A stretch of 64,000 nucleotides of DNA. Origin: an uncultured Erysipelotrichaceae bacterium. GTDB taxonomy: Bacteria; Bacillota_I; Bacilli_A; Erysipelotrichales; Erysipelotrichaceae. The stretch spans positions 6,613-70,612 of the forward strand of contig CAYJJS010000004.1 of the NCBI GenBank assembly GCA_964370645.1, given 5' to 3'. The position numbers were made by a program, and so were the translations under genes. Each line of letters begins with the position of its first letter. Position 1 is the first letter of the stretch. The notes under the pieces were generated by a model, which was not told the origin of the DNA, ran no database searches, and saw only the letters and a list, made by a program, of their open reading frames with translations. This document shows positions 3,745 to 59,466 of this stretch, one piece after another.

Positions 3745-3761
3745 ATCATTACTCCTCCTTA

Positions 3762-3775
3762 TGGTATCGTTCCCA
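3762..3775 (-). promoter_or_regulatory. LacI-family/cre-like operator O1 (TGGTATCGTTCCCA) in the scrA leader
   Basis: Imperfect palindrome of the TGnAAnCGnTTnCA type between the predicted -10 and the RBS. Confidence 0.5.
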
Positions 3776-3780
3776 CATTT

Positions 3781-3809
3781 AATATATCAAATCATTTAGT
3801 CTCTGTCAA
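3781..3809 (-). promoter_or_regulatory. SigA-type promoter of scrA-scrB-scrK
   Basis: On the minus strand: TTGACA, 17 nt, TATATT, located 35-65 nt upstream of the scrA ATG. Confidence 0.55.
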
Positions 3810-3816
3810 CATAAAA

Positions 3817-3830
3817 TGGAACCGATTTCA
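3817..3830 (-). promoter_or_regulatory. cre/ScrR-like operator O2 (TGGAACCGATTTCA)
   Basis: Fits the cre consensus WTGNAANCGNWNNCW. Lies just upstream of the -35 and 55 bp from O1. Confidence 0.5.
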
Positions 3831-3853
3831 TAATTAGAATAAAAAAAAGAAAG

Positions 3854-4831
3854 TTATAAACTTTCTCCTTCCACTAAATCATATTGTATTAATGTTTTCA
3901 AATTGACTTCATCCCCTTTAATTAAAGAAATCATCATATTCGCAGCTAGCTCTCCAGCTTCTTCACTTCGAAATCGTAAAGTATATAAAGATGGGTGCAA
4001 TAATTGAGACGTCTCATACCCTCCAAAAGCAACCAATGCGATGTCCTTCTTTATTTCTTTATTCGCCATTTGAATTTCCTTATAAGCAGCTAATGCTTGA
4101 TTATCCGTTGCACAAATTAATGCATCAAGTGTTTGCTGTTTTAATAAGTTACTCACTACCTGTCTTGTGGTATCATAGGTAAAATCACTTTCCACACAGA
4201 TCACCTCTACTTGAAACTGTTCTAATGCTTTTAAAACACCCTCTTTACGATATTTCCCAACGGCCTCATCACTCTCACTAACTCCAACATAAGCAACCTT
4301 GCGATACCCTTTTTCGCCTACTTTTTTTCCAATATCAAATCCAGCGCGAAAATCTGAATTCACAATAGAAATACCATTCATATATTCTTGCCCAATACTA
4401 ATAAAAGGCACTTTTAAAGTATCTAACATTGCATAGTGTTCACTGCTTAACTGTGTTGCAAACAATACTATCCCATCCACCTTCATTTGTACAAAATAGC
4501 GAATCGCTTCTAACTCTTCAAGGGCATTATGATTTGTATTAATCATAATTGTACGATAATTCATTTCCTTAAATTGCTCATCCATACTCTTCATAACTCG
4601 ACTTGTTACTCTTGAATAAATAGTTGGAAGCACAACACCAATTAACTTGCTATTTTTTGCCTTCAAACTTTGTGCAAATGGATTGGGAACATAGTTATAC
4701 ATAGAAACAACTTCTGCAATTTTAACTCTGGTACTCTCTTTCAAATATCCTCCATTAAAATAGCGAGACACTGTACTTTTTCCTACTCCAGCCAATCTTG
4801 CAATATCGCTAATTGTCAATTTTTCTTTCAC
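3854..4831 (-). CDS. scrR: LacI-family transcriptional repressor (sucrose operon regulator)
   Basis: N-terminal HTH (TISDIARLAGVGKSTVSRYFN) plus a periplasmic-binding-like sugar domain. Sits immediately upstream of the scr genes. Confidence 0.85.
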   Translation of the reverse strand: MKEKLTISDIARLAGVGKSTVSRYFNGGYLKESTRVKIAEVVSMYNYVPNPFAQSLKAKNSKLIGVVLPTIYSRVTSRVMKSMDEQFKEMNYRTIMINTNHNALEELEAIRYFVQMKVDGIVLFATQLSSEHYAMLDTLKVPFISIGQEYMNGISIVNSDFRAGFDIGKKVGEKGYRKVAYVGVSESDEAVGKYRKEGVLKALEQFQVEVICVESDFTYDTTRQVVSNLLKQQTLDALICATDNQALAAYKEIQMANKEIKKDIALVAFGGYETSQLLHPSLYTLRFRSEEAGELAANMMISLIKGDEVNLKTLIQYDLVEGESL

Positions 4832-4870
4832 TCAAACACCCCCATTTTAAAAAAGCTACCAATTGGTAGC

Positions 4871-5065
4871 TTACATAATAATATATCCTAATGAAGTAAT
4901 AATTCTTCTTGCATTTGTGACAATATTTCCATCACGTTCTACACTCACTGTTTTATTTTGTAAATCAATTTCACAAGAGACTCCTGCATCATGTAATGCA
5001 TTTGTAATCATTGCTTCACAATGTGCACAGCTCATATTCTCAATAATAAATATGTGTTTTGTCAT
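4871..5065 (-). CDS. Heavy-metal-associated (CopZ-like) metallochaperone
   Basis: 64 aa with an MSCAHCE (MxCxxC) metal-binding motif and an HMA fold pattern. Confidence 0.75.
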   Translation of the reverse strand: MTKHIFIIENMSCAHCEAMITNALHDAGVSCEIDLQNKTVSVERDGNIVTNARRIITSLGYIIM

Positions 5066-5076
5066 AATTTGCCTTT

Positions 5077-6468
5077 CTAGAACATTAAATTTCTTGGAGT
5101 TCTTGGGAATGGTTGTACATCTCTAATATTTGTCATTCCCGTAATATACATTAAGAAACGATCAAAACCTAAACCAAACCCTGCATGTTTACATCCACCA
5201 TACTTACGTAAATCCATGTACCATGCTAATGCATCGATTTCAATATCCATCTCTTTCATTCTGTTCTCTAATACATCATAGCGCTCTTCTCTTTGACTTC
5301 CACCTACTAGTTCACCAACACCTGGTACAAGTAAATCACAAGCAGCCACCGTCTTATTATCATCATTCATACGCATGTAGAATGCTTTAATATCTTTTGG
5401 ATAATCTGTAATAAACACAGGACCATTTATAATGTTTTCACAAATATAACGCTCATGTTCTGAGTTCATATCCATTCCCCACTCTACTTTATTTTCAAAC
5501 TTTACACCTTCAGCAACTGCTTTTTCTAGCAATTCTACAGCTTGTGTATATGGTAAACGCTTAAATTCAGAATCTCTAACTTTAGTAATGCGATCAATAC
5601 ACTCTTTATCAATAACACTTGCGAAAAATTTCATTTCTTCTGGTGCATTTTCTAACACATAATTGATACAAAATTTAATCATATCCTCAATTAAATCCAT
5701 GTCATCTTCTAAATCTGCAAACGCAATCTCAGGTTCAATCATCCAAAATTCACTTGCATGACGTGTTGTATTTGAGTTTTCTGCACGAAAGGTTGGGCCA
5801 AACGTGTATACATCACGAAATGCCATTGCAAATGCCTCTACGTGCAATTGTCCTGACACAGTAAGTGAAGCATGTTTTCCAAAGAAATCTTCTTCGTATT
5901 TATCATCACTACGCGTTGTTACACTAAAAGATTCACCAGCACCTTCCGCATCATTTCCAGTAATAATTGGTGTATGTACATACACAAATCCTTGATTTTG
6001 GAAAAATTCATGAATTGCCATACTCAATACAGAACGCAAACGAAATACTGCATAAAATGTATTGGCACGCACACGTAAGTGTGGGATTTCTCTCATATAT
6101 TCAAAAGAGTGTCTCTTTTTTTGTAATGGATAACCTTCATCACTATGTCCTTCTAAAGTAGCCTGTACAACTTCAATTTCAAAAGGTTGTTTCCCCTCTG
6201 GTGTAAGCTTTAATTTCCCACTTACCACAACTGCAGACCCTGTAGAATATTTTGCAATTTGCTCAAACCCTTCTACTCCATCACGATACACTAATTGTGC
6301 ATTTCTAAAATATGTCCCATCATTTAGTTCGATAAAACCTACTTTTCCTGAACAACGATTCGTTCTTACCCATCCTTCTAATTGAATAAAGTCTAATGAA
6401 TCTTTCTCTAATTGAGAACCATTAAACACAGTTTCATAAAGTTCTCTAATTGTCATAAATTCAATCAT
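5077..6468 (-). CDS. asnS: Asparagine--tRNA ligase
   Basis: 463 aa class IIb aaRS with an N-terminal OB anticodon domain and class II motifs ([18 protein letters not shown]). AAGGAGG RBS 6 nt upstream of the ATG. Confidence 0.9.
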
Positions 6469-6479
6469 ATGTTTCCTCC

Positions 6480-7106
6480 TTAAAGCTTATTATTTGCATT
6501 TGTTTCAAACACCAATTCTTGAATGGATGAAACAACATCTACTGTTTTTATAGAAATTCCTTTTGGAACCTGAATATGCTTATGGGTAAAATCTACAATT
6601 CCTGTAATTCCACAAGCAATCAATTTATCTACGGTTGACTGCACATTATCTGATATTGCTAGAATCGCAATACGACAACCTGCAGGTATATTTTCTGACA
6701 AACTGTTCAAATCATAAATTGGGATATTAAACAAAACTTCTTGTTTTTTAGGATCCACATCAAAAGCACATGTTATTTCTCCAACTACATAATCCCATTT
6801 ATTATACTTCATAAGTGCTCTACCTAAGTTTCCTGCACCAACTAAAATAATCTTCTCATCAAAATCCACTCCTAATTCTTGATTGAAAATATCAATCAAA
6901 GAATCTATATCATATCCATACCCTTGCTTCCCTAAGTTTCCTAACAAAGAAAAATCTCTACGAATCGTAGTGGATTCTATACTTACTAATTCACTTAACT
7001 CCTTGGACATCACTCGTGTTTTTCCATATTTTTTAAGACGTCTTAACGCCTTTAAATAAAGTGGATAACGATTCAATGTCGCTTTAGGTACCTTTCTTTC
7101 GCTCAT
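6480..7106 (-). CDS. rex: Redox-sensing transcriptional repressor Rex
   Basis: 208 aa. N-terminal winged helix ([16 protein letters not shown]) plus a Rossmann motif (GAGNLGRAL). Confidence 0.9.
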
Positions 7107-7168
7107 AACATCACCACCTTAAGTATATCATATTGTACTCACTTGTGAAATAATTAATTTTTTTAACT

Positions 7169-9647: not shown

Positions 9648-10849
9648 TACCTTCCTAGTATTTTTTTGCGCATTGCAAATGCAAAAGCACTTAGTGAATA
9701 CAGTGGACTAGTAGCCAAATCAAACTCACCAATAAATTCATGTATGTATGGATTAAAATTTGCTTTAAAATGAGTTAATCCATCTTTAAAATCACCTTCT
9801 ACTCCACCCATGTTTGCATACTTGCACCCATGCGCATAAGCATACAGCATAACTTGTGTATATAAATGATATTGTGGCATAAATTTCTTATACGTATCAT
9901 CCATCCCTGCATACAACATTTCTAAAGTATCTCCTACTTTTATTGATAAAATACCTGCAATGCATTCATCCTCTACCTCTTTAAAAGCTTCCAACTCTTT
10001 ACAATCTTTTTGTAAAGATGCTTGTATATCTAATAATCGACGCATCTTTTTTGGTGAACCTTCTCTACAATCCGCAATCTCTCGTTCATTTATAGCTTGT
10101 TTTTGCTCATATTCTTCCAATAACGCTTTTACATTCACCTTCGCTAAAAAGATATAACAATCATCCTTATAAATTTCTAATAGTTGTCTAAAATAAGCTT
10201 CATTACGTAGGCTCACTTGTTTTCTTTCTTCACTCTTCATGACTACTTTCGCAAAATTACCTACACCACTCTCATCTACTCGCATGACCTCTACATTACG
10301 TTTTAATGCATCCTTAATCAAACGTTTTGTATGACGAGGCAATTGTTGTTCAAAGTCATCATCCAAATGCACACATGCATCAAAACGTGGTTGAATACTC
10401 TCTTCGATATAGGTAGTAAACCCAGTATGTTTTGCCTTTGCTTTAATAATATTTTGTAAAGCCTGCATACTTACTTCACTGCATTCTATTTCTTCCCCGA
10501 TCTTATATTGTTTCATCACAATGGCTGGGTTAAATTTAATGAACACACAACGATATCGATTTGCCCATTTCTTTAATTGACTCATAAAATAGTTTACTAA
10601 TTGCTCATTACTATAATCCAAAACGGGTCCCCTAGGGATATACATCATTGTGAATCCTAATGGTAGTTTTTTTATTAAAACAGAAGCACTCGCAATCAGT
10701 GTTTCACCTTTGTAAACACCGACTATTTCATGTCCCCAATTGTCTTTTACTTTTGCCCAATCTGCAGTTTGTAAAAGATTGTATAAAGGATGCCCTTGGA
10801 TAAAGGCATCGTGTTCTTTATTTGTAATATTTGCTTTAAACGTATACAT
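9647..10849 (-). CDS. FemAB-family peptidoglycan interpeptide-bridge aminoacyltransferase
   Basis: 400 aa FemA/FemX/MurM-like architecture with a central coiled-coil insert. Confidence 0.7.
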   Translation of the reverse strand: MYTFKANITNKEHDAFIQGHPLYNLLQTADWAKVKDNWGHEIVGVYKGETLIASASVLIKKLPLGFTMMYIPRGPVLDYSNEQLVNYFMSQLKKWANRYRCVFIKFNPAIVMKQYKIGEEIECSEVSMQALQNIIKAKAKHTGFTTYIEESIQPRFDACVHLDDDFEQQLPRHTKRLIKDALKRNVEVMRVDESGVGNFAKVVMKSEERKQVSLRNEAYFRQLLEIYKDDCYIFLAKVNVKALLEEYEQKQAINEREIADCREGSPKKMRRLLDIQASLQKDCKELEAFKEVEDECIAGILSIKVGDTLEMLYAGMDDTYKKFMPQYHLYTQVMLYAYAHGCKYANMGGVEGDFKDGLTHFKANFNPYIHEFIGEFDLATSPLYSLSAFAFAMRKKILGR

Positions 10850-10858
10850 AGCAGCTCC

Positions 10859-11389
10859 TTACTCTTTGATAAATTGTAGATATTTTTGGTATAATGCTCG
10901 TATTTCATAATGATCAAAAGGTGAATTCTGTAATTTAATATTACGCAATAAACGATGTAATTCCTTTTCAATCACTTCTTTCAAGTCATCACTATAATGC
11001 ATTTGCGCGGAATGTTGCGCATACTCATCTTCATCTAAAATCATATATTCCCAATCTGGGTTAATTTTTACATCCAAATCATAATCAATATTCTTAATTG
11101 CTTCCCCATCATAAATACTAGGGCTGGCAATATTACAATAATAGTGTATCCCACTTTTACGAATCATACAAATGACATTATAAAAACGATCTGGATAAAA
11201 AAAACAAATGGCTGGCTCTCTTGTTAACCATCTTCTTCCATCACTCTCAATCACCCATGAACGATCTGTAATCGCCACTATTCTCTTATCATTAGCTTCA
11301 ATAACATACCCATGAGCCCATGTTCGATGAACATTTTTATCATGCTTATAACTTTGTATATATACACTTGTTTTTACCTTTGGTAACAT
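10859..11389 (-). CDS. DUF402 / UPF0374 nucleoside tri-/diphosphatase (Ntdp/YgaC-like)
   Basis: 176 aa. Pattern SYKHD...RTW...NIASP...DYDLDVK is typical of the family. Confidence 0.7.
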   Translation of the reverse strand: MLPKVKTSVYIQSYKHDKNVHRTWAHGYVIEANDKRIVAITDRSWVIESDGRRWLTREPAICFFYPDRFYNVICMIRKSGIHYYCNIASPSIYDGEAIKNIDYDLDVKINPDWEYMILDEDEYAQHSAQMHYSDDLKEVIEKELHRLLRNIKLQNSPFDHYEIRALYQKYLQFIKE

Positions 11390-11476
11390 GTTCTCACCTC
11401 AATTTATATATTATAACAAAATCTTAAGAATACTTCACTACTTTTTAGCCATACTACTAACGAAAGGAGTGATACT

Positions 11477-11686
11477 ATGAAAAACACTGTAGAATTAACA
11501 CCAAAGGATTGTCTATATATAGATGATACTATGAGTCAAATGTGCGCCATGAAAGAAAATATTTGTGAAATTAAGGAAGCTGCCACAAAAAAAGAAATTA
11601 CAAACCATATTCAAAAAATAGAAAATATGCTTTGTACAAACTATGATGCAATGAAAACACTTTTAGAAAGGGCCTTAGAAAAATGA
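11477..11686 (+). CDS. Hypothetical small protein, first gene of a 2-gene plus-strand operon
   Basis: 69-aa ORF with a GGAGTGA RBS. 4-nt overlap with the next ORF. Confidence 0.45.
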   Translation: MKNTVELTPKDCLYIDDTMSQMCAMKENICEIKEAATKKEITNHIQKIENMLCTNYDAMKTLLERALEK

Positions 11687-11934
11687 AAGATCAAGTTATC
11701 TTAGAAAATACGTTAATTCAATTAAAACATATGAAAGCATTACTAAATACCTTTGCACAAGAAGCAAGTAATGAGCAAGTGCTTAAAGTAGTAGAGAAAG
11801 CATATAAGGACATCTCTACCTATCAACGCAGTACGTATGACTTAATGCTTTCTTTAAACTTTATGAAAGTCACTAGCCAAACACAAAGTGGCATTAAAAA
11901 AGTATACGATAAATACAAAACCAAAGAGTGTTAG
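11683..11934 (+). CDS. Coat F-domain-like small protein (possible spore coat protein)
   Basis: 83 aa helical protein. The segment LKHMKALLNTFAQEASNEQV resembles Coat F domain proteins. A long hairpin and T-run follow at about 12013-12068. Confidence 0.4.
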   Translation: MKDQVILENTLIQLKHMKALLNTFAQEASNEQVLKVVEKAYKDISTYQRSTYDLMLSLNFMKVTSQTQSGIKKVYDKYKTKEC

Positions 11935-12180
11935 TAGCGAAGTATAGAAGATGTTATGCATGTACTATTTTTGTGTAACTAACTTTATACCTCTACTATC
12001 TAAATACTACATAAAGCGTTCCTCAATGCCTCGATTACTACCATCGACTTGAGGCGCTTTTTTTATGTAGAATATGTATACTTAGATATAATAGCGAGCG
12101 CACAAACAATTTACGCATATAAAAACACCCTCCACAATTGCCTTTTCTATTTTAAGTTTTCTAGTGAGTCACACATTTAA

Positions 12181-12459
12181 CTAAGAAACTTCATGTATCT
12201 CACTTTCCCCTTTTTGAAGTATTTTTATTTTAACCTTACTTATGAACCATACAAGTAAAACTATACTTATTATAAAAGGGACAAAAAAATCGAATAGATC
12301 TATGCCTACAAATGTTAGAAAAAAGCGCAAAATCAAATATATTATTACAAGAAATTTTGGTAAATCCCAAGCACACTTTCGTATAAATCCAACTGGTTTA
12401 CATGTATAAAACTGTCCATCTATTTTAATTTTAGAGTCTGGCCAATACGATTTAATCAA
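12181..12459 (-). CDS. Hypothetical small membrane protein
   Basis: 92-aa ORF with two hydrophobic segments. No recognisable family. Confidence 0.4.
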   Translation of the reverse strand: MIKSYWPDSKIKIDGQFYTCKPVGFIRKCAWDLPKFLVIIYLILRFFLTFVGIDLFDFFVPFIISIVLLVWFISKVKIKILQKGESEIHEVS

Positions 12460-12698
12460 TTGTAGATATTTTTCCCCCTAAACTTCTCCTTCATTAACAA
12501 TATATTTTACTTTAAGAAGCATAGCAACGAATAAATCGTTCTAAGTTGACAAAAGTGTACATGGCAACCACCTATCTTTCAACTATATAATATACCACGC
12601 CATACATGAAAAGCAGTAATTCCATAAGAAGTTACTACCCCATGTTTTCATTATAGTAATTCACATATAAGTATATTATAATAGTATAGAGGTGTTTT

Positions 12699-13100
12699 AT
12701 GGAAAGAAAAGAATACAGTCAATATTTACGAACAGAAAAGAAATATAGTTGTTCACAATGCGTTTTGTGTACCTATGCAAAGCATTTAAATGTATCAGAA
12801 GACACAGCTTATCGTTTGAGTGAAGGATTCGCTAGGGGCTTTGGTGCTCGTGAGGAAGTATGTGGTGCTGTTGCTGCTATGGCAATGGTCATCGGACTAA
12901 AAAATAGTGATGGTGAAATGAGTAATGGAAGTAGTAAAGCAAGTACATTAGAAAAAGTAAACACACTAACCAATCGTTTCATTGAAAAAAATGGTAGTCA
13001 TATGTGTCATACTTTGCTTTCACAAAATACAAATACAAGAACTTGTGATACACTAATACAAGATTGCATCGATATGTTAGAAGAAGAGATGCAATCATAA
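12699..13100 (+). CDS. C_GCAxxG_C_C-family redox-active protein
   Basis: 133 aa with the conserved cysteines CSQC, EEVCGAVAAM and MCHTLL..C..C. GAGG RBS. Confidence 0.6.
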   Translation: MERKEYSQYLRTEKKYSCSQCVLCTYAKHLNVSEDTAYRLSEGFARGFGAREEVCGAVAAMAMVIGLKNSDGEMSNGSSKASTLEKVNTLTNRFIEKNGSHMCHTLLSQNTNTRTCDTLIQDCIDMLEEEMQS

Positions 13101-13109
13101 GGAGAACCA

Positions 13110-13571
13110 ATGAAAGACATAAGAGTAAAACAATTCGCTTCATTAATTGAAGATATCCAATATGAAGTATCCCTATTATCCAATGCATCTGCATGCTTAA
13201 ACATGATGTTAGAAGATGTATCTTGGGTAGGATTTTACATCTATCAAGATGAAAAATTAATTCTTGGACCCTTCCAAGGAAAAACAGCGTGTACCCAAAT
13301 CAAAATGGGTGTTGGTGTTTGTGGAAGTAGTGCACAAACACAAGAAACATTACTTGTAGAAGATGTTCATACATTTCCTACACATATTGCTTGCGATGCT
13401 GCAAGCAATAGTGAAATCGTAGTGCCTATCGTTATTGATGGAAGTATTTATGGTGTACTAGACTTAGATTCTACATCCTTTGCACGCTTTACAAAAGAGG
13501 ATCAAATCTTTTTAGAAGCTTGTGTAGACGTACTTGTACAAGCCCTAAAAAAAATAAAAAGTTCGAACTAA
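13110..13571 (+). CDS. GAF-domain protein (free methionine-R-sulfoxide reductase/YebR-like)
   Basis: 153 aa single GAF domain (WVGFY...GPFQGK.AC..I..G.GVCG). Hairpin and T-run terminator at about 13561-13595. Confidence 0.7.
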   Translation: MKDIRVKQFASLIEDIQYEVSLLSNASACLNMMLEDVSWVGFYIYQDEKLILGPFQGKTACTQIKMGVGVCGSSAQTQETLLVEDVHTFPTHIACDAASNSEIVVPIVIDGSIYGVLDLDSTSFARFTKEDQIFLEACVDVLVQALKKIKSSN

Positions 13572-14563
13572 ATTTGAACTTTTTTTTGTTTTATTCGATA
13601 TGGAATATAGCCAATCACAAAGGCCATAGTAAGAGAAGCTATACATACACATATATAATGGATTACACTATTATATACAAATATACTTTCTAACCCAATG
13701 GCTTGTGATGCACCACGTATCAATACGATGCATAATGGATGTAAGATATATACCCAAGTCGTCATTTCACGTATATTTTTAAGTGGTGACATACGTATAC
13801 TCAATAAGTATGAAAAGAAAAAATACATGGTTGGAATTAAACATATATACATACTATCGTGTCTTTGCCACTCTAGTGTATGAAGCACTTGTGCTTCCAC
13901 ACACATTCCTACTAAGGACACCACACTTAGTGTCAAAGCTGTCTTCTTAGCTACTTTAGTATGTGCATATAAATACATCCCTAAGGTGAAAAAGAAAGGT
14001 AAGAAATACAATCCATTTCGAGTATATTCAAAGATTATAAAATTAAAATCATAAATTTGTGAAAGCAGAGGTATATTTTGAATTACACCATAATAACTAT
14101 CACCAAATAGACCAATCATATATAAGATAGCACTTATACCTAAAACCTTTTCAATGCTGCAAACTTTACACAGCCCATGCACAATCAATATGCATAATAC
14201 CATAGCAGGAAAATACCACAAATGATAAAATACACCATCAAACAATAGTAAGCGAACAATGTTAGTGCCTTCATATACACCTGCATACATACCTAGCGGG
14301 ACATATATAATCATGGATACAATATATAGTGCTATAAGTCTAGCAATAAAACTTGTTACCTTTTGCTTATCCTTTATTTTTGTGAAAAAGAAATACCCGC
14401 TCACCATTGCAAAGAACGGCACTCCTACACGTGCGATTCCCCTTGTGAAAATAAAGTCTGCACCTTCATTAATAGATGTTAGTGGTGATGTATGTACTGC
14501 TACCACAAGTAGTGCCGCAATCATTTTAAACACATCCAAGGCACCCAATTGTTTTTGACTCAT
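13568..14563 (-). CDS. Acyltransferase family 3 integral membrane protein
   Basis: About 10 TM segments. The N-terminal motif LDVFKMIAALLVVAVHT is typical of acyltransferase_3. The start is moved to the ATG at 14563, which is preceded by AGAGGGGGA. Confidence 0.7.
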   Translation of the reverse strand: MSQKQLGALDVFKMIAALLVVAVHTSPLTSINEGADFIFTRGIARVGVPFFAMVSGYFFFTKIKDKQKVTSFIARLIALYIVSMIIYVPLGMYAGVYEGTNIVRLLLFDGVFYHLWYFPAMVLCILIVHGLCKVCSIEKVLGISAILYMIGLFGDSYYGVIQNIPLLSQIYDFNFIIFEYTRNGLYFLPFFFTLGMYLYAHTKVAKKTALTLSVVSLVGMCVEAQVLHTLEWQRHDSMYICLIPTMYFFFSYLLSIRMSPLKNIREMTTWVYILHPLCIVLIRGASQAIGLESIFVYNSVIHYICVCIASLTMAFVIGYIPYRIKQKKVQI

Positions 14564-51444: not shown

Positions 51445-52611
51445 TTATTTATTCTCTAATGCTAAAAGTTCATGCACTCTGTTTTGAATAAATTGTTCAA
51501 TTGCCTTTAATCTCCTACTTGAAAGATTATAACTAGGGTGTTTATCAAACTTAAAGTAAATCATCTTTCTTAGCTTTTGTTTTTGTCGTTGTGTAATAAA
51601 CTCTCTCGCTAAATCTAAAAAAGGAATATTATAATAGGACATCCTTGTTTTTGCATATGTATTTATGTTTTCAAAATGTTCAGGCATTCCGCATGAAATA
51701 ATGATAATCCATTATCAAAAACAGGAGCGAATGCAATCGGGGTATTTGTTTCATTTTCCACTAGTAACCCAAAATTTCCATAATGTCGATCTTGATTGCA
51801 TATTAAAGAATCAAAAATAAGCATATCTACAAACGCATCATAAAACGTTGGATTTTCTTTTCTCAGGTACTCGCCAACTTCGTAAATAGGTGCGTTCTTA
51901 ACAAAATCATAAATTTGTACATAGGAAACTTGTGGGCTTGTAAACAGCTCACAAGTAGAACAAATCTCTCTTCCATTTTGACAAATTATAAGTGACATGG
52001 TCAATGCCCATTACCGTAGCAATTTGTGAGGCCTAAAATTCAGAATAAGGTTCAAAGCCAGTATTGATTCCACCGCTTGAACCACCTTTATACAAATAAA
52101 TCGTGTTATGCTACCTTCTCTACCCTTTTCTCAACATCCCATTTGTTGTGAATTCTGGTGAAGAAGTAAACCCCTGAACCTTAACTCTTCCATAACCCGT
52201 ATATGCAACTGATGCTAATGTTTTCTCAAAGGTATTTTCGTATAAATTATAATCAGAAAATGCCCCTTCAAAATCATTATCTACCACCCAATAACTATCA
52301 TTTAATGATAAACCTTTACACCTTTTTATAATAGCAATAGTATCATTATGTGAAAGACCCATTTTAGCTAGTGAGCTATCCACAAATTCACGATTTTTAG
52401 GAATTACTCTTCTTTTTAACCATGACATAACACCTTCATCACTTAATACAAACCCGATTGGAAGCAAAGATATATAATTTGTGTTGACATTGACAATTTC
52501 ACATCGTTGTCCTTTAATTCCTTCATCAATATATTTGAAAGTAAGTAAAGAATAATCAAATTGTTTAAGCGTAAATAACATAGTGTCTCTCCCTTCCACA
52601 ATATACTGCAT
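51445..52611 (-). pseudogene. Decayed HipA-like kinase (toxin-type) gene
   Basis: HipA-like N-terminal, core (YKGGSSGG..EPYSEF) and C-terminal catalytic (CNQDRHYGNFG) segments lie colinear but in three frames. There is an in-frame TAG at 52033-52035 and at least two frameshifts. No hipB partner. Confidence 0.7.
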
Positions 52612-52682: not shown

Positions 52683-52707
52683 AAAAAAGCACTTCTCGTG
52701 AAGTGCT
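52683..52707 (-). terminator. Terminator of the SleC-like gene
   Basis: Minus-strand AGCACUUC-ACGA-GAAGUGCU followed by U6. Overlaps the stop codon. Confidence 0.7.
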
Positions 52708-53593
52708 TAATTTGTTAATTGTACATATACTTCATTTAGCTTATACCAAGTCGTGTTACCAACAATACCATCTGGCGTTAAGCCTAATAAATTTTGAAAA
52801 GCTATGACAGCCGTTGCTGTTGCATTACCAAATATGGAATCTGCAACAATGTACGGTATAGATTTGTAATAAATAGAAATGGTTTGTAATCGCTGTTGTA
52901 CAAAAAGTACATCACTCCCACTACTTCCTACACGAATTAGTTGCCCTGGATAAGGTGGTAATCCAAGCGAAGGTGTATCCCCATTTTTAATTTCATCTGC
53001 GAGTGTAAATAGTGCTTTCCATGTCTCTTCTCCTACAATTCCATCTCCATCCAACCCTACGATGTTTTGAAAGATTTCCACTGCATTCTCACTTGCACTA
53101 CCAAAAACACCGTCCTCAACTAATATGGGAATTGATGAATACACATTTCCAACCACATTTAGCGCCACTTGTACTTGCTTTACAACATCTCCATTACTAC
53201 CTAATCGAATAAAATAACCTGGATAGGCATCGACTTCTTCATCCGGAACGATGACACCCTCATAATCTGCATACTTAGAAAATATTAAATTCCACGTTGT
53301 TTGTCCAACGATACCATCTTGTACTAATCCATATCTTGCTTGAAAAGACAATACACTGTTAAATGTTTGTTGTCCAAACTTACCATCAATCTCATCAATA
53401 TCCTTTACTTGTGCATCAAACTCAGAAATACATATCAACATATATTGTAAAAATTGTACTTCCACTCCGGAATCATTAAACTGCAATGGTGAGCCAGGGT
53501 ATTGTCCACTTAAAAAACTGCTCGTAACCCCTAGACTTCCTAACTCTGCAAGTTTACGAACCGATACATACACATACGAAATTTTGTACCATG
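52707..53593 (-). CDS. 3' segment (294 codons) of the interrupted SleC-like gene: three further PG_binding_1 repeats
   Basis: No ATG or RBS; the track start is a GTG inside foreign sequence. It opens mid-repeat with WYKISYVYV, which continues the truncated repeat at 58240. Confidence 0.8.
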
Positions 53594-53616
53594 CCACAAT
53601 GACATACGGACACTTT

Positions 53617-55221
53617 TTAACTTTTTTCTGTGAAAGATAAATAATTTTCGATATTCACTTTTAGAAATACTTCAATATTCTTCTCTTTATCGATTTCAAT
53701 TTTCTCAACTAAATCATAGATCAATTCAAATGTAGGTGTCTTAAACGCGACAAATTTCTCAATGATTTCGCGACATTCTTCAAAAGATGCTTTTTCATTT
53801 TCATTCTCTTTCTTCAAAATTGTTTTTTCTAACGCCTCTTTTTCCTTTTCTAATCGTTCTACCTTTTCATCATACTGTTTTATTAACATGGTATATTGCC
53901 CGAGACTAATGATATCATTTAAGCGATCCTCATATAGTTTTAATATTATCTTTTCATTTTTTTTAATATCTTTGCTAAGCTCATCTACTCTATTCTGAAT
54001 ATACCTATTCTCTTGACTTTTCAAATGAAGTACTTTCTTCATAAAATTCTCTTGATTGAATTCTTTCATGAAATTTTTTCCTATTTCATGAAAATAATGC
54101 AATAGGTGTAATTCTAGTTTCTCATAACTAAACGAATGTGAACAACATACTCCATGCTTACTAAATCTTCGATAATATTCACATTGTCCATGAAAAGTAA
54201 TTCCTTTCTTCAACTTTTTTTTATAAATAGTAATTGCATGTCCACAGTCTTTACACACTAATAAACCTTGAAATAAATGCTTTTTCTCCCCTTTAGAGCG
54301 AAATTTACTATTTTTATCTAAAGCTTTTTGTACTTTATTAAAAACATCAACACTTACAAGCGCTTCATGAGTGTTTTCAACTACATACCATTCTTTCGGA
54401 TCTGTAGCAATTATTTTTTCTGAATTATAGCTCAACTTTCGAAACCTACCTTGAATCATATGACCTAGATACATTTTGTCAGACAGTATTTGCCTCACTG
54501 TTTGAGGGCGCCATATTCCAGTCCCCTTATTTAATTCTTCATTCTTTGATACGTAACGCTTACTATAAATAGAAGGAATAGGTACTCGGGCTTCTGTTAA
54601 TCTTCTTGAAATAACTGTTGTTCCTGCACCACTACTCGCCCATTCAAAAATTTGTTTTACATATTTACTTGAAATTGGATCTGGGATTAGGCGCTTAGGA
54701 TTGTTAGGATTTCTCTTATAGCCAAATTTCGGAAATGAAGCAATATAATCCCCTTTCTTCCTTTTTACATCAAATGTACTTCTTATTTTTTTTGAAGTAT
54801 CTCTTAAATATAAGTCGTTCACACTAAGACGAATTCCGAGCATAGCATCTCCTACTAATGAATCATATCCATCATTAATTGCAATAAAACGAACATTTTT
54901 TGTTAAGAAATATTCTTCAATATAAATTCCTGTTTCATATAATTCTCTTCCTAATCTTGATAAGTCTTTAACAATCACACAATTTATTGTTTCATTTTCA
55001 ATGTCCTGTTTCAATAGTTCGAACCCAGGTCTATTGTAATTCGAACCAGTAAACCCATCATCACTATAATATTTACTTATGATAAGATTATTAAACTTGG
55101 CAAATGATTCAATAATCATTTTTTGACTCTCGATTGAAGAACTTTCATCTCTATGATCATCTTCACGTGAAAGCCTAGTATATGCACCCACTAAATACTT
55201 TTTTCTATTGGTGCTTCTCAC
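53617..55221 (-). CDS. Large serine recombinase
   Basis: 534 aa. Resolvase catalytic domain (AYTRLSREDD), recombinase domain, Cys-rich zinc ribbon (CKDCGH...C..) and a C-terminal coiled coil. Confidence 0.9.
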   Translation of the reverse strand: MRSTNRKKYLVGAYTRLSREDDHRDESSSIESQKMIIESFAKFNNLIISKYYSDDGFTGSNYNRPGFELLKQDIENETINCVIVKDLSRLGRELYETGIYIEEYFLTKNVRFIAINDGYDSLVGDAMLGIRLSVNDLYLRDTSKKIRSTFDVKRKKGDYIASFPKFGYKRNPNNPKRLIPDPISSKYVKQIFEWASSGAGTTVISRRLTEARVPIPSIYSKRYVSKNEELNKGTGIWRPQTVRQILSDKMYLGHMIQGRFRKLSYNSEKIIATDPKEWYVVENTHEALVSVDVFNKVQKALDKNSKFRSKGEKKHLFQGLLVCKDCGHAITIYKKKLKKGITFHGQCEYYRRFSKHGVCCSHSFSYEKLELHLLHYFHEIGKNFMKEFNQENFMKKVLHLKSQENRYIQNRVDELSKDIKKNEKIILKLYEDRLNDIISLGQYTMLIKQYDEKVERLEKEKEALEKTILKKENENEKASFEECREIIEKFVAFKTPTFELIYDLVEKIEIDKEKNIEVFLKVNIENYLSFTEKS

Positions 55222-55292
55222 TCTACTTCCCCCTCTATCATAATTAATCAGATAACCTATGCCTTATACATTACACATTGAAAACAAAACTG

Positions 55293-55415
55293 TTAGACGT
55301 GCAAATTCGATTTTTGTTGTTTGAAGTACTTCACAACGTTTTCTTCCATCACTTTTTCTAACTCTTTTTTTGCCATTGAATGATTAAATATAATTTTAAA
55401 TTTTCTTTTATGCAT
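55293..55415 (-). CDS. 40-aa basic sORF upstream of the recombinase gene
   Basis: Not in the ORF track (too short). Encodes MHKRKFKIIFNHSMAKKELEKVMEENVVKYFKQQKSNLHV. Strong AAGGAGG RBS 7 nt upstream of the ATG. Confidence 0.4.
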   Translation of the reverse strand: MHKRKFKIIFNHSMAKKELEKVMEENVVKYFKQQKSNLHV

Positions 55416-55537
55416 AGTCTATCCTCCTTAATCAACTATTTAATTTGTTGTTATATTACTATATGATTCATTTTTTGATTTAGAATATCTCAAATTATTA
55501 CTTCTTATTAATCACCATTTCATTTATTAAATTATAC

Positions 55538-55572
55538 TAAAAAATAACGCAGTCAATGTAACTACGTTATTT
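55538..55572 (-). terminator. Hairpin plus U-run separating the cargo genes from the sORF-recombinase unit
   Basis: AAATAACG..AGT / ACT..CGTTATTT stem followed by a U-run on the minus strand. Confidence 0.45.
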
Positions 55573-55802
55573 GTTTAATATCTTATTTTGTTTACCCAAA
55601 TATTTACAATCAATCATCAAACCCCTCATTTATTTATAGGGCCTTTATTTCTCTTCTCATAATAAAATCAACCATTTCTAAGAACATTTACCTTAATAAG
55701 CTTACTTGGATATCATATGCTATAAACAATACAATTGTGATTATTTTTAATCACATAAAACGCTAATTTTGTCTATTATAAATATCTTTATGTTAAGAAA
55801 TA

Positions 55803-56090
55803 TCATCCAAAAATCATAAAGAAAGTAAAAGTGATTAAAGTAAGATTAATGAAAATTAATTTTGGATACTCATTTTTTTTACTTTTGTTCATGAAGAAAT
55901 AAGAAACGTTAAAATAAAACATCCATGTTATTCCTTGTAGTAAAAATGCTATTTCATTAGAAACATCGAAAAATGTAAAAGAAATAAAGAGTATAATAAA
56001 TGATGCAATGGCTCCGTAAATAAAGCTATCACGAATTTCATTAGTAAGATGTGTATTAAATTTCATGATTGACCTCCTTAAATATATCAT
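55803..56090 (-). CDS. Hypothetical 95-aa membrane protein (3 TM segments), element cargo
   Basis: Hydrophobic ORF. No family recognised. Confidence 0.45.
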   Translation of the reverse strand: MIYLRRSIMKFNTHLTNEIRDSFIYGAIASFIILFISFTFFDVSNEIAFLLQGITWMFYFNVSYFFMNKSKKNEYPKLIFINLTLITFTFFMIFG

Positions 56091-56329
56091 TCATCGAATA
56101 TTCTAAAGGCATTATTGAAATTGCCGTTCAGTTTTTATGATACATAACTGATGATAGCACCAATTATTCCTGTAACAAGCCCTATAACATCTCTAACACC
56201 CCTAATTTTGATCTACTATATCATAAAGTTGATGCTCCTATTCGTATTAATATTTACCACTTTTTATTTGTATTGAAGTATGTATAGCAACACATGTACT
56301 TAACACAATTGTTTTAACGTATTATTTTT

Positions 56330-56677
56330 TCATTCTCCTTCCGATTTGTTTTGGAATTCCTTTAAACCTTTAAAATTAAAATAATCTTCATATATATCAA
56401 AAAAGGTTAACATATTTGCTCGTTCTTCTTCTCTATCTTCATCAATATATTTCAATTCACTATTTTGCGTAGCTATATAGTACTCTTCATATGTTGAATT
56501 ATTTAGATCCGGTAAATTATAGTCTTGTTGCATAACTTCTAAATCATCTTCATAAAGCTTTTTGAATTCCTGCAGCGCATTCTCTCTGATCGGTTTAATG
56601 TAAAAAAGATGTACACATACAACTAAGAGAAGTAATGAAACTAAAGTTATACCAATCATCTTTATATTTTTTTTCAT
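56330..56677 (-). CDS. Hypothetical 115-aa membrane-anchored protein sharing a domain with the upstream amidase-like protein
   Basis: N-terminal TM anchor. The segment LEVMQQDYNL...Y..YY...L.FFDIYE parallels LEVIQKNMNL...Y..YY...LSFFDIYE in the 56704 ORF. Confidence 0.5.
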   Translation of the reverse strand: MKKNIKMIGITLVSLLLLVVCVHLFYIKPIRENALQEFKKLYEDDLEVMQQDYNLPDLNNSTYEEYYIATQNSELKYIDEDREEERANMLTFFDIYEDYFNFKGLKEFQNKSEGE

Positions 56678-56703
56678 AGCATTATCCCTTCCTAGTTAAT
56701 AGT

Positions 56704-57757
56704 TTACGGATTTCCAATTTTCCACAGAATTCTTGTTGAACCATCATTCACCCAACCTGTATGTGATGATAATTTGTAATAATTACTTGTATGTTGAGCA
56801 ATGTATTTAGTATATGAAGATGGTCCATTATTAGCGATATAGCCTATGTGATCTAAATGTCCATCCCCTCCGAAATCCGCAGCAATAAAATCTCCTTTAT
56901 TTAGATGTCCTACAAAACTACTCCAATATCGTGTTTGATTCTTTTTCCCCCATTTAGCACCAAACATATGAGCATTAATCCATGGTCCATTATATGGCCT
57001 CCAATTCGCAACTGTAATCATTCCCCCAGCTCTCGCAATTTGTGAAGCAAAATTCGCACAATCTCCGCCTTGAGTATAATAATTGTATGCAGGATTCGGA
57101 TTATTTGCATATCTAATTGCATAAGTGCTTGCTGCACTCACATTTGGCATTTGTGATAATCGTGTCCCTGTTGGAGCTTTCATTAAACCCTCTTGTGAGT
57201 TTTCTTGTTCTAAAGATATCAATCGCTCATTATAATCTGGAGAGATACTATCTATTTCGTATAATAAGTCAGCCTTATTCACTTTATACTCGTTACCCAA
57301 TTGTTCTTTTAATAACAATAGTTCATCATTATATTCATTATTTTCATAAATATCAAAAAATGATAGAACTTCTACTTGATCTTCTGAAGAAAAGATTTCC
57401 TCTCCATTTTCCTTAATATAATTGTAATATTGAACATAGTTCTTCTCATTTATTTCTGATAAATTCATATTTTTTTGTATGACTTCTAACTCTTTTCCAT
57501 GCTTTCCTTTAAATTTATTAAGTGATTCATCTCGCTCTTCATACGTGACTAATAAAGATATTTTCTTACCATCAACACTAAAATCACCATTAGTAATAGT
57601 TTTTCCCCAAGAAGAGTTTTCATTAATGAATTCTGCCGTTTTATCAGGTGTAGATAAATCTGATAAGCAGTTAGGGCTATTTATTTCCTGAGCATTAACA
57701 GCCACTATTGATCCAGTAAATAACAACATTCCCACAACAATATTTTTTATATTTCAT
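56704..57757 (-). CDS. Secreted putative amidase-domain (Amidase_6-like Cys/His) protein, with a 5' frameshift in an A6 tract
   Basis: The C-terminal segment GGDCANFASQIARAGG ... DHIGYI resembles the putative amidase domain. The RBS and ATG at 57757 are out of frame with the body by 1 nt. The track ORF starts on GTG at 57735. Confidence 0.55.
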
Positions 57758-58216
57758 TTTTGTCTCCTTTTCTTTAAATGTATTTTCCATTAAATTCATG
57801 TATATGTATTTATAGCTTTTTATAACTTTTAAAAAAACATATCAATCATCTCCTTTATTTAATTTTTAATAGCTAGGATTCTAGTGTACACTAACTTTTT
57901 AGCATCGTATTATTCATTTATTAGTGCTACTTTTAATAATTATATAATAACATATCCTTCTGCTTCAAACTAATATCATACACTATTCATGACCAACATA
58001 CATTTTGAAAGTATATTTTAATATATAATAAGCAATCAGCCAACAAATCCATCTGCGACTAACACCTTTGAATTTACTCTCGCCCTTATAGCCATTGTAT
58101 ATGCTTGATTAATACTACCTTTACAAACTCTTTCGAAATGAATGATTCCCATAATTTTGCTAACCTTTCAGTACAAATTTGATATTTTAGTTACTGACAA
58201 CGCTTATATTATGTTG

Positions 58217-59398
58217 TCACTTTTTCTTTGTTTCACATGTAGCCTTTCCAACAATTCCATCTACGGTTAGTGCGAATTGACGTTGTACAATTTCTACTGC
58301 TGCCTTTGTGGCAGGGCCATAAATACCATCTACTGGGAAAATAGGTGTGATTGCAGGATAGTTTAAGGCAATCGCATTCAGTTGTTTTTGAATCGTTGTA
58401 ACATCCAATCCACTACTTCCCAGTTGTAATGGAACACCAGGATAAGAAGATGTGATAAGTTCAACATTATTTGTTGTTACTAGTGAGATACTATCTCCAT
58501 AGTAAAACTGTAAAATTTCAAAAGCGCTATACCCTTGTAAAGCCAAATCCTGTGTCCCCCATTGTTTCAAACCTGGACAATCTGCAATTTTCCCATCACA
58601 ATATTCTGCATAAAAGGGTTCACTGAAATCTGCTTTCTGTATATACGTATTAAATATATCATCCACAATCTCTGAGATATTATCATAAATATTACGATCC
58701 TTAATAAAGTATTGGTCAAATCCTGTATTATTTGTAATCGTGTAATTATACCCCTTACTTGGATACCACTCTGTATACACTCGATTCAATACTAATGAAA
58801 TTTGACAATAAATATTCGCTCGTAGTGACTCCTCTTCCCATGTAGGATAAATTTCACTACAAGCAACATTTTTCACATACGAAATAAAGTCCACATTCAC
58901 ATCTTCAGCATTACTTGTGGGTGAGCCTAAATGTACCGTTACTGTTTTAGGAATAATTACATTTCCTAAAATTCTCGTTAAATTGCGAAAACCTGCCTCT
59001 GCATTTGTATCATAATTACTAAGCAAAGGATGATCTGGTATATAGCTAACTTTTTTAATTACTTCTCTTGTTTTATTAGGAATCAAGTTCAGAGGCAAAG
59101 TTGTATAAATTGTATCAAAAATTTGTACATTCACAACCTCTAAAACCTCATAGCCATTCGCCTTTACTTCTACATTGTATCTTTGATACGTTCTTTCTCT
59201 ATTGTTTTCATCTAGTGACAAATCCTTACTAGGTGCTTCTAATGGAATGTATGGTGTCTCACCATTTACATCTGTAATATAAAACGATTCACTACTCACC
59301 TGATCATCTTCAATCAAGTAAATTCTTACCATCGCTTCCGATATTGGAAATGCCTCTTTCGCACTTGTCACAAATACTCTTAAATATCCACTCGGCAT
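58217..59398 (-). CDS. 5' segment of the interrupted SleC-like spore cortex-lytic enzyme gene: 387 native codons plus 6 element-derived codons and a stop
   Basis: The start MPSGYLRV has an AGGGGGGA RBS. The segment VHLGSPTSNAEDVNVDFISYVKNVACSEIYPTWEEESLRANIY..LNRVYTEWY resembles clostridial SleC, followed by a first PG_binding_1 repeat truncated at GIVGKAT. Confidence 0.75.
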   Translation of the reverse strand: MPSGYLRVFVTSAKEAFPISEAMVRIYLIEDDQVSSESFYITDVNGETPYIPLEAPSKDLSLDENNRERTYQRYNVEVKANGYEVLEVVNVQIFDTIYTTLPLNLIPNKTREVIKKVSYIPDHPLLSNYDTNAEAGFRNLTRILGNVIIPKTVTVHLGSPTSNAEDVNVDFISYVKNVACSEIYPTWEEESLRANIYCQISLVLNRVYTEWYPSKGYNYTITNNTGFDQYFIKDRNIYDNISEIVDDIFNTYIQKADFSEPFYAEYCDGKIADCPGLKQWGTQDLALQGYSAFEILQFYYGDSISLVTTNNVELITSSYPGVPLQLGSSGLDVTTIQKQLNAIALNYPAITPIFPVDGIYGPATKAAVEIVQRQFALTVDGIVGKATCETKKK

Positions 59399-59466
59399 AA
59401 AAATCCCCCCTAACATACAATATGTTAGAGAGGATTTTACGTAAAGGTATGTGCCTAATTGAGGCA

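What the first reader, a model, noticed from the sequence alone, without database searches (positions are those of the whole stretch)
53590..58239. Element boundaries: 4-bp shared CATG core and predicted attB/attP
The left junction reads (plus strand) attttgtac-CATG-ccacaatgacatacgg. The right junction reads ctttgtttca-CATG-tagcctttccaac.

Only CATG is shared, which fits a serine recombinase (short crossover core, no long direct repeats) rather than a tyrosine integrase or a transposon target duplication.

Predicted attB after excision (plus strand): acgaaattttgtac-CATG-tagcctttccaacaa. Predicted attP on the excised circle: ctttttctttgtttca-CATG-ccacaatgacatacggacac. The recombinase stop codon (53617) lies 23 nt from the core, so the attP half-site abuts the recombinase gene.
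Basis: seen in the sequence. Interest (0 to 1): 0.6.

Follow-up and report, generated by a model that had tools for sequence, protein, structure and literature searches.

The report
Recombinase element splitting spore gene sleC
A 4.6-kb mobile element with its own serine recombinase sits exactly inside the only spore-cortex-lytic enzyme gene (sleC) of a small spore-forming gut bacterium, and its predicted cut-and-rejoin sites hold up and can be narrowed to a two-base crossover; it is a new example of a known kind of gene-splitting element.

Summary
CATG occurs at 53590-53593 and 58236-58239, and no base beyond it is shared. Joining the flanks there removes 4,646 bp and fuses two minus-strand ORFs in frame. 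The fused 680-aa product is a SleC homologue with four PG_binding_1 repeats. Its joint, ...DGIVGKAT|WYKISY..., matches uninterrupted orthologues.

The element carries an intact large serine recombinase (LSR) at its edge. The stop codon lies 23 nt from the core.

I refine the finding. The crossover is most likely the CA of CATG (+ strand; TG on the gene strand). Only that centre gives the rebuilt attP dyad symmetry (13/20). Only that register aligns the attP arms with those of related elements, whose centres are fixed by both junctions; one relative shares only GG.

Those relatives (50-59% identical LSRs) split a spoVE-position SEDS gene in several genera.

The genome has Spo0A, SpoIVA, sigE and sigG, no SleB/CwlJ and no second sleC, so excision during sporulation in the mother cell is plausible. 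Only 1 of 57 sleC-bearing genomes in the order has the insertion. The 5' fragment alone resembles a short SleC, so a tolerated insertion remains a real rival.

The parts
53590..53593 (.). attL core CATG (junction of the sleC 3' part with the element). Inferred crossover dinucleotide is CA at 53590-53591.
58236..58239 (.). attR core CATG (junction of the element with the sleC 5' part). Inferred crossover dinucleotide is CA at 58236-58237.
53592..53615 (.). Recombinase-proximal attP arm (24 nt), ending 1 nt before the recombinase stop codon. It aligns in register with the proximal arms of five related elements.
58212..58235 (.). Recombinase-distal attP arm (24 nt). It is 16/24 identical to the distal arm of the G115 element and is the dyad partner of the proximal arm.
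53617..55221 (-). Large serine recombinase, 534 aa, GTG start, with catalytic motif YTRLSRED. The N-terminal domain is closest to TnpX among solved structures.
55293..55415 (-). 40-aa basic sORF with an AAGGAGG ribosome-binding site, 71 nt upstream of the recombinase. Weakly similar sORFs occupy the same position in four related elements. It is a candidate directionality factor, untested.
55542..55572 (-). Terminator-like hairpin separating the cargo genes from the sORF-recombinase unit.
55803..56090 (-). Cargo: 95-aa ORF with no Pfam family. From its sequence it looks like a membrane protein.
56330..56677 (-). Cargo: 115-aa N-terminally anchored protein, paralogous to the N-terminal part of the amidase-like protein (36% identity over 73 aa).
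56704..57757 (-). Cargo: Amidase_6-domain protein. The start and signal peptide are out of frame with the body because of one extra A in an A-tract.
58036..58152 (-). 38-aa sORF just inside the distal end of the element. No family match; function unknown.
58240..59392 (-). sleC 5' part: N-terminal region, SpoIID-like catalytic region and most of PG_binding_1 repeat 1. In the integrated state it reads on for 6 codons (CETKKK) to a stop at 58217-58219.
52707..53589 (-). sleC 3' part: the end of repeat 1 plus three more PG_binding_1 repeats. It is intact and is not evolving faster than the 5' part.
59416..59442 (-). Sigma-K-like motif AC-N16-CATATTGTA, ending 24 nt upstream of the sleC ATG. This is a consensus match only.

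Best explanation
A 4,646-bp non-phage integrative element has inserted into codons 385/386 of the only sleC (spore cortex-lytic enzyme) gene of a small Erysipelotrichales-like spore former. It uses a TnpX-like large serine recombinase.

**Shown in silico**
- Its sites are attL (53590 region) and attR (58236 region).
- Recombination between them rejoins sleC in frame. It also releases a circle whose attP is a roughly 50-bp imperfect palindrome.

**Inferred**
- The two-base staggered crossover is at CA (+ strand; TG on the gene strand) inside the shared CATG. I give this about 0.75.
- Excision takes place in the mother cell during sporulation, as with skin, gin and similar elements. Full-length SleC would then be made for the spore while the spore's own chromosome keeps the element. 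I give this about 0.5.
- The 40-aa sORF upstream of the recombinase may set directionality. I give this about 0.3. TnpX-type enzymes can act without such a factor.
For: **In-frame rejoining**
- Joining the flanks gives an in-frame product.
- The joint GKAT|WYKISY matches five intact orthologues at protein and DNA level.

**Host gene identity**
- It also has four PG_binding_1 repeats.

**Recombinase**
- All three LSR domains are above their cut-offs.
- The N-terminal domain matches TnpX 2mhc at E=7.6e-28.

**Crossover centre**
- attP dyad symmetry is 13/20 and 14/24 only at centre CA. Centres AT and TG give 8 and 6 of 20.
- The proximal arm aligns with five relatives only at that register. Summed identity is 59, against 22-34 at the other registers.
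- The whole attP matches the G115 attP at 28/48, against 7-17 at other registers.
- A blind scan of the 20 kb upstream of the proximal junction returns the true distal junction as the top hit.

**Relatives with both junctions read**
- G115: core TTACAGGT, attP dyad 20/24 centred on GG.
- G145: core GTAACAGGTAT.
- G044: only GG is shared.

**Support for a sporulation setting**
- The genome has Spo0A and SpoIVA above cut-off and sigE and sigG.
- It has no Hydrolase_2 SleB/CwlJ and no second sleC.
- sleC is sigma-K dependent in C. difficile (PMC3789822).
- A sigma-K-like motif lies upstream of sleC.
- The detached 3' part shows no rate acceleration: its C/N branch ratio is 0.79, against 0.59-2.96 in intact orthologues.
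- LSR relatives split the third SEDS paralogue, which sits next to murG in the spoVE position.
- In skin elements the recombinase is also at the edge, just upstream of the 3' fragment (bioRxiv 10.1101/2022.02.25.481979).
Against: - No excision product was seen.
- Neither the species nor the element occurs a second time in the 5.8-billion-protein collection. The best SleC hit is 69% identical and the best LSR hit 59%.
- Only 1 of 57 sleC-bearing genomes sampled in the order carries the insertion. It is therefore recent or rare, not a fixed developmental device.
- The 391-aa 5' fragment keeps the whole catalytic part and 53 of 57 positions of repeat 1. Natural one-repeat SleC proteins of 408-430 aa exist in the same order. 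The truncation may therefore be tolerated.
- No convincing sporulation promoter lies in front of the sORF-recombinase unit. There is only a lone CATATAGTA.
- attB has no dyad symmetry.
- The same LSR clade includes the integrase of a conjugative element (L013). These enzymes are therefore ordinary mobile-element integrases too.
Confidence: 0.6

Rival explanations
1. This is an ordinary TnpX-type integrative element that uses a site in sleC as a safe landing place. Excision is rare or linked to transfer, not to sporulation. The truncated 5' fragment (catalytic part plus almost one PG-binding repeat) does the SleC job, or germination is impaired.
For: - The insertion is present in 1 of 57 sleC-bearing genomes.
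- The 5' fragment has about the architecture of natural one-repeat SleC proteins.
- The LSR N-terminal domain is closest to TnpX. From my own knowledge, TnpX excises and inserts without a directionality factor.
- A clade member is the integrase of a conjugative element.
- No clear sporulation promoter lies upstream of the recombinase.
Against: - No relaxase or mobilisation gene is found among the cargo.
- The 3' fragment is intact and not fast-evolving.
- sleC is the only recognisable cortex-lytic gene.
- Every intervening element in a mother-cell gene tested so far excises during sporulation (PMC5595907, PMC10747680).
Confidence: 0.32
2. This is a fossil insertion. The element can no longer excise and sleC is permanently truncated.
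For: - The cargo amidase gene carries a frameshift.
- There is no evidence of excision.
Against: - The recombinase ORF is complete, with its catalytic motif.
- Both attP arms still match each other and match relatives.
- Both sleC halves are free of stops and frameshifts.
Confidence: 0.06
3. The boundaries are right, but the crossover is at AT or TG (+ strand) of CATG rather than CA.
For: All four bases are shared, so sequence identity alone cannot decide.
Against: - Dyad symmetry and register with relatives single out CA.
- AT is palindromic and would abolish polarity. This follows from the established requirement of LSRs for a non-palindromic centre.
- In three relatives the centre follows the same inner motif (..ACA|NN).
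Confidence: 0.2

Closest known systems
gin element in gerE of Bacillus cereus ATCC 10987 (GirC recombinase plus GirX; PMC5595907)
   Same: - It is a non-phage element with a large serine recombinase inside the coding region of a late mother-cell gene.
- It has a short shared core (9 bp there).
- attP is an imperfect inverted repeat and attB is not symmetric.
- A small accessory protein sets direction.
   Different: - gin is 28.6 kb, has three recombinase genes, sits in a Bacillus and is experimentally proven.
- This element is 4.6 kb, has one TnpX-like recombinase, targets sleC and sits in an Erysipelotrichales-like genome.
- Nothing has been shown experimentally for it.
skin elements in sigK (B. 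subtilis SpoIVCA; C. difficile CD1231 plus RDF CD1234; PMC5025042; bioRxiv 10.1101/2022.02.25.481979)
   Same: [quoted passage not shown]
- Known skin sizes of 2.6-48 kb include this size.
- Excision restores the reading frame.
   Different: - The target is a structural germination enzyme, not a sigma factor. Excision would not gate a regulon.
- The recombinase is not a close SpoIVCA relative. The best NCBIfam matches are CcrB and XisF, far below their cut-offs.
Tn4451/Tn4453 family with TnpX
   Same: - The catalytic domain is the closest match among solved structures (2mhc, E=7.6e-28).
- Both are small elements excised as a circle by one large serine recombinase at a 2-bp centre.
   Different: - No mobilisation gene and no resistance cargo were found here.
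- The centre here is CA/TG. For TnpX it is GA, from my own knowledge.
- The target here is one fixed site inside a conserved codon pair.
yin element in yabG of Clostridium botulinum (PMC10747680)
   Same: It is an intervening element in a sigma-K-dependent spore gene, seen in a single strain, with attB conserved in other strains.
   Different: yin is a prophage-like element for which excision has been observed. This element is not phage-like and its excision has not been tested.

Membership tests
Large serine recombinase (LSR) site-specific recombination system | N-terminal resolvase catalytic domain with the serine nucleophile | tested here: met
   PF00239 matches at E=7e-20 over residues 13-158. 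The motif YTRLSRED...SIESQ is present.
Large serine recombinase (LSR) site-specific recombination system | Recombinase domain plus zinc-ribbon domain C-terminal to the catalytic domain | tested here: met
   PF07508 scores 70 bits. PF13408 scores 27.8 bits, above its 25.3-bit cut-off.
Large serine recombinase (LSR) site-specific recombination system | attP of about 50 bp with imperfect dyad symmetry about a non-palindromic central dinucleotide; only that dinucleotide need be shared with attB | tested here: met
   Dyad symmetry is 13/20 and 14/24 at CA only. Relatives share cores of 2, 8 and 11 bp.
Large serine recombinase (LSR) site-specific recombination system | Two-base staggered cleavage and subunit rotation | not testable with these tools
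   This needs biochemistry.
Sporulation gene-intervening elements (skin, SPbeta, vfbin, vrin, gin, yin) | Inserted inside the coding region of a sporulation gene expressed in the mother cell | tested here: inconclusive
   The host gene is a SleC homologue. Mother-cell, sigma-K-dependent expression is known for C. difficile sleC. Here it is suggested only by a consensus motif.
Sporulation gene-intervening elements (skin, SPbeta, vfbin, vrin, gin, yin) | Precise excision restores an intact, orthologue-like reading frame | tested here: met
   In-silico joining and alignment with five intact orthologues.
Sporulation gene-intervening elements (skin, SPbeta, vfbin, vrin, gin, yin) | The host is an endospore former | tested here: met
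   By gene content only: Spo0A at 262 bits and SpoIVA at 655 bits, both above cut-off, plus sigE and sigG.
Sporulation gene-intervening elements (skin, SPbeta, vfbin, vrin, gin, yin) | Excision is triggered during sporulation | not testable with these tools
Sporulation gene-intervening elements (skin, SPbeta, vfbin, vrin, gin, yin) | Element-encoded recombination directionality factor | tested here: inconclusive
   A syntenic sORF lies upstream of the recombinase here and in four relatives. It matches no family. No interaction test was possible.
Tn4451/TnpX-type integrative mobilisable transposons | TnpX-like recombinase | tested here: inconclusive
   Only the catalytic domain was compared (2mhc, residues 7-121).
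Tn4451/TnpX-type integrative mobilisable transposons | Mobilisation protein and oriT within the element | tested here: not met
   None of the cargo ORFs has a relaxase or Mob domain in Pfam.
SleC spore cortex-lytic enzymes (the interrupted gene) | N-terminal pre/pro region, SpoIID-like catalytic region and C-terminal PG_binding_1 | tested here: met
   Residues 1-321 align to residues 58-394 of 9h68 at E=4e-58. There is a weak SpoIID_LytB match. PG_binding_1 occurs four times.

The most novel reading that the evidence does not exclude
A clade of TnpX-like mini-elements (3-5 kb, a small ORF plus a large serine recombinase) in gut Erysipelotrichales may have specialised on mother-cell spore-envelope genes. 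Its targets would be the spoVE-position SEDS gene in several genera, sleC here, and possibly a collagen-like exosporium-type gene in one complete genome. The elements would act as heritable DNA switches.

In this genome the switch would toggle SleC between two forms. The short form has the catalytic part and a crippled single PG-binding repeat. The full form has four repeats. Germination properties would then be set by whether excision happened in the mother cell.
Probability: 0.15. Interest if true: 0.6.

Novelty: new member of a known kind. Interest (0 to 1): 0.4.

Why it matters
**A new target gene.** If excision is developmental, sleC joins sigK, spsM, spoVFB, spoVR, gerE, yabG, cotJC and spoIIID as genes rebuilt by DNA rearrangement. 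It would be the first germination enzyme on that list, as far as my literature searches show.

**Ready-made att sites.** The work gives att sites for a compact recombinase, with a crossover predicted by the same half-site logic that was validated experimentally for other LSRs (PMC12286644). A set of related recombinases with different central dinucleotides (TG, GG) and known natural sites comes with it. This is the kind of raw material used for genome-engineering integrases.

**An annotation fix.** The two 'peptidoglycan-binding protein' fragments are one gene. The organism should not be scored as lacking a cortex-lytic enzyme.

Tried and rejected
2. **An empty site or a second copy in the same species.** None exists in the 5.8-billion-protein collection. 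The best intact SleC is 69% identical, the best LSR 59%, and the window's own proteins occur on one contig only. I therefore did not spend the metagenome pattern scan.
3. **The same element in the species genomes.** The genome-contig scan with the recombinase gave only distant relatives in other contexts.
4. **The far junction of the L022 metagenome element.** That record is not held.
5. **The far junction of the G148 element next to a collagen-like gene.** The dyad-partner scan gave no clear hit within 20 kb.
6. **Promoters.** Sigma-70-like sites are no more frequent than in shuffles (37 against 38.5). Sporulation-type motifs in front of the sORF-recombinase unit are limited to a lone CATATAGT(A/T), seen here and in G115. 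I do not count this as evidence.
7. **Family assignment of the two sORFs.** Nothing in Pfam.
8. **Tyrosine integrase, transposon target duplication, assembly chimera.** I considered and rejected these. There is no such gene, no duplication beyond 4 bp, and the element lies well inside an 89-kb contig.
Full report
**Observation**

The window reads GTAC-CATG-CCACA at 53590-53593 and TTCA-CATG-TAGCC at 58236-58239. The neighbouring bases differ on both sides, so exactly four bases are shared. The core-to-core distance is 4,646 bp.

The ORF at 53617-55221 (-) has Resolvase, Recombinase and Zn_ribbon_recom domains, all above Pfam cut-offs. It also has the catalytic motif YTRLSRED.

**What is interrupted**

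Two minus-strand ORFs flank the element. These are 58217-59392 (reading from the ATG at 59392) and 52707-53597.

Joining the flanks at CATG gives one open frame of 680 codons. [quoted passage not shown] The rest is four PG_binding_1 repeats. The gene is therefore a SleC homologue.

The joint reads DGIVGKAT|WYKISYVY. Uninterrupted orthologues in other genomes of the same family read GK(R/S/G)TWYKIS, GLATWNMIS or GQNTWYQIS at the same column. One of these is in the same genus, at 64% identity and 685 aa. Their DNA reads AC(C/T/A)TGGTA there.

The junction is thus fixed to the codon pair Thr-Trp.

**Where the crossover is**

A shared 4-mer is trivial on its own, so I looked for independent signals.

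1. *Dyad symmetry of the rebuilt attP.* The attP (distal end + CATG + proximal end) is an imperfect palindrome only when centred on the CA of CATG. The score is 13/20 and 14/24. Centres AT and TG give 8 and 6 of 20. A score of 13 or more of 20 occurs at 9e-4 of positions in the window.

2. *Relatives with both junctions read.* The closest recombinases (50-59% identity) sit in other elements, and for three of them I could read both junctions.
   - G115 is a 3,099-bp element. Its shared core is TTACAGGT, and its attP is GTTACA-GG-TGTAAC with 20/24 dyad symmetry on GG.
   - G145 has the core GTAACAGGTAT.
   - G044 shares only GG.
   
   Shared cores of 2, 8 and 11 bp around one fixed dinucleotide are what a serine recombinase predicts.

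3. *Register with relatives.* In the register that puts the window's TG (gene strand) on the relatives' GG (CC for G115, whose gene lies the other way round), the recombinase-proximal arm matches five relatives at 12, 14, 12, 12 and 9 of 24. The sum is 59. Every other register from -6 to +6 gives 22-34. The whole attP matches the G115 attP at 28/48, against 7-17 elsewhere.

4. *Blind scan.* I scanned the 20 kb upstream of the proximal junction for the dyad partner of the proximal arm. The true distal junction was the top hit.

Deducing the centre from half-site alignment is the method that was confirmed by sequencing for other LSRs (PMC12286644). I therefore place the crossover at CA (+), at 53590-53591 and 58236-58237. 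The following TG is the first two bases of the inner half-site motif. attB itself is not symmetric, as was reported for gin (PMC5595907).

**The element**

Reading along the minus strand from the distal end, the element holds:
- a 38-aa sORF (58036-58152);
- an Amidase_6 protein whose start is out of frame by one A in an A-tract;
- a 115-aa paralogue of the N-terminal part of that protein;
- a 95-aa ORF that looks like a membrane protein;
- a terminator (55572-55542);
- a 40-aa basic sORF with a strong ribosome-binding site (55293-55415);
- the recombinase.

No phage, relaxase or replication domain was found. G+C is 29.0%, against 35.6% for sleC.

Weakly similar sORFs lie in the same place in G115, G145, the UBA5578 element and L014. 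None matches a Pfam family. The recombinase's catalytic domain is closest to TnpX among solved structures. The best phage hits are about 33% identical.

**Context for function**

The assembly is 1.78 Mb and 97.7% complete. It has Spo0A and SpoIVA above the curated cut-offs and sigE and sigG. It has no Hydrolase_2 (SleB/CwlJ) gene and no second sleC.

In C. difficile, sleC is a sigma-K (mother-cell) gene and the main cortex hydrolase (PMC3789822). AC-N16-CATATTGTA ends 24 nt upstream of the sleC ATG. There are 14 such matches on both strands of the 64-kb window.

The detached 3' part has not sped up. Its terminal-branch ratio of C part to N part is 0.79, within the 0.59-2.96 of intact orthologues.

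The relatives' target is the third SEDS paralogue, directly upstream of murG-murB-divIB-ftsA-ftsZ...spoIIGA-sigE-sigG. This is the spoVE position. It is cut at PVTG|(V/I)TLP. In skin elements the recombinase is likewise at the edge, usually just upstream of the 3' fragment, and sizes run from 2.6 to 48 kb.

All this fits a skin-like element that is excised in the mother cell.

**Why I stay cautious**

- The species and the element occur once in the searched collections.
- Among 57 genomes of the order with a sleC homologue, only this one is split. The insertion is rare or recent.
- The 5' fragment keeps the entire catalytic part and 53 of 57 positions of the first PG-binding repeat. Natural SleC proteins of 408-430 aa with one repeat exist in the order. 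The truncated protein might therefore work.
- A 43%-identical clade member is the integrase of a conjugative element inserted at the same SEDS motif.
- TnpX-type enzymes can excise without a directionality factor (my own knowledge).
- There is no convincing sporulation promoter before the recombinase.

I therefore give about 0.9 to the boundaries, about 0.75 to the CA centre, and about 0.5 to developmental excision.

**Comparison and novelty**

The kind is known: skin, SPbeta, vfbin, vrin, gin and yin, plus cotJC and spoIIID cases. I found no paper describing an element in sleC or in spoVE. Other notes of this scan report similar elements in further spore genes. These are unchecked AI notes and I do not count them as evidence.

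I file the finding as a new member of a known kind. The att-site prediction is confirmed and sharpened.

Noticed in passing
L018-L024 (metagenome contigs), L033/L045 (G145), L034/L046 (G044), L035 (G115: 10484-13590): Recombinases 50-59% identical to this one split the SEDS gene directly upstream of murG (the spoVE position) at PVTG|(V/I)TLP, in several genera and samples. The G115 element is only 3,099 bp and carries a GltD-like oxidoreductase gene. Each of these genomes has two other SEDS genes.
   Followed up: partly
G148:C1:3565741-3567500 (L031/L032): In a complete 4.5-Mb genome, a 57%-identical recombinase ends next to GTTACA-GG, followed by a collagen-like (GPT-repeat) reading frame. 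This may be a third kind of target gene. I could not find the far junction.
   Followed up: partly
L013 (Bacillales bacterium UBA5578, DIMA01000001.1) 1-7120: A 43%-identical recombinase belongs to an element that carries what look like a relaxase and a coupling protein (my reading of the ORF translations, not scanned against any family library). It abuts the same SEDS C-terminal motif (GVTLPFLSYGG). The landing site is therefore shared by transferable elements.
   Followed up: partly
window 57733-57757 (-): The Amidase_6 cargo gene has its ATG and signal peptide one base out of frame with the body, at an A-tract. This is either decay, a homopolymer sequencing error or slippage.
   Followed up: partly
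window 58205-58231 (-) and 55712-55738 (-): Two further AC-N16/17-CATANNNTA matches lie on the gene strand inside the element. One starts 5 nt after the distal core and reads into the element. This may be chance in A+T-rich DNA.
   Followed up: no
order-wide search: SleC homologues of this order come with one, two, three or four PG_binding_1 repeats, at about 360, 410-430, 620-640 and 680-710 aa. Some also lack the N-terminal 140 residues.
   Followed up: no
window 51445-52611 (-): HipA-like kinase pieces lie next to sleC in different frames. One piece gives a weak HipA_C match. I did not examine them further.
   Followed up: no
G002 (same genus): The sister species has an intact sleC. It shows only two distant SEDS matches and none of the murG-adjacent type. 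This may be an assembly gap or a real loss.
   Followed up: no
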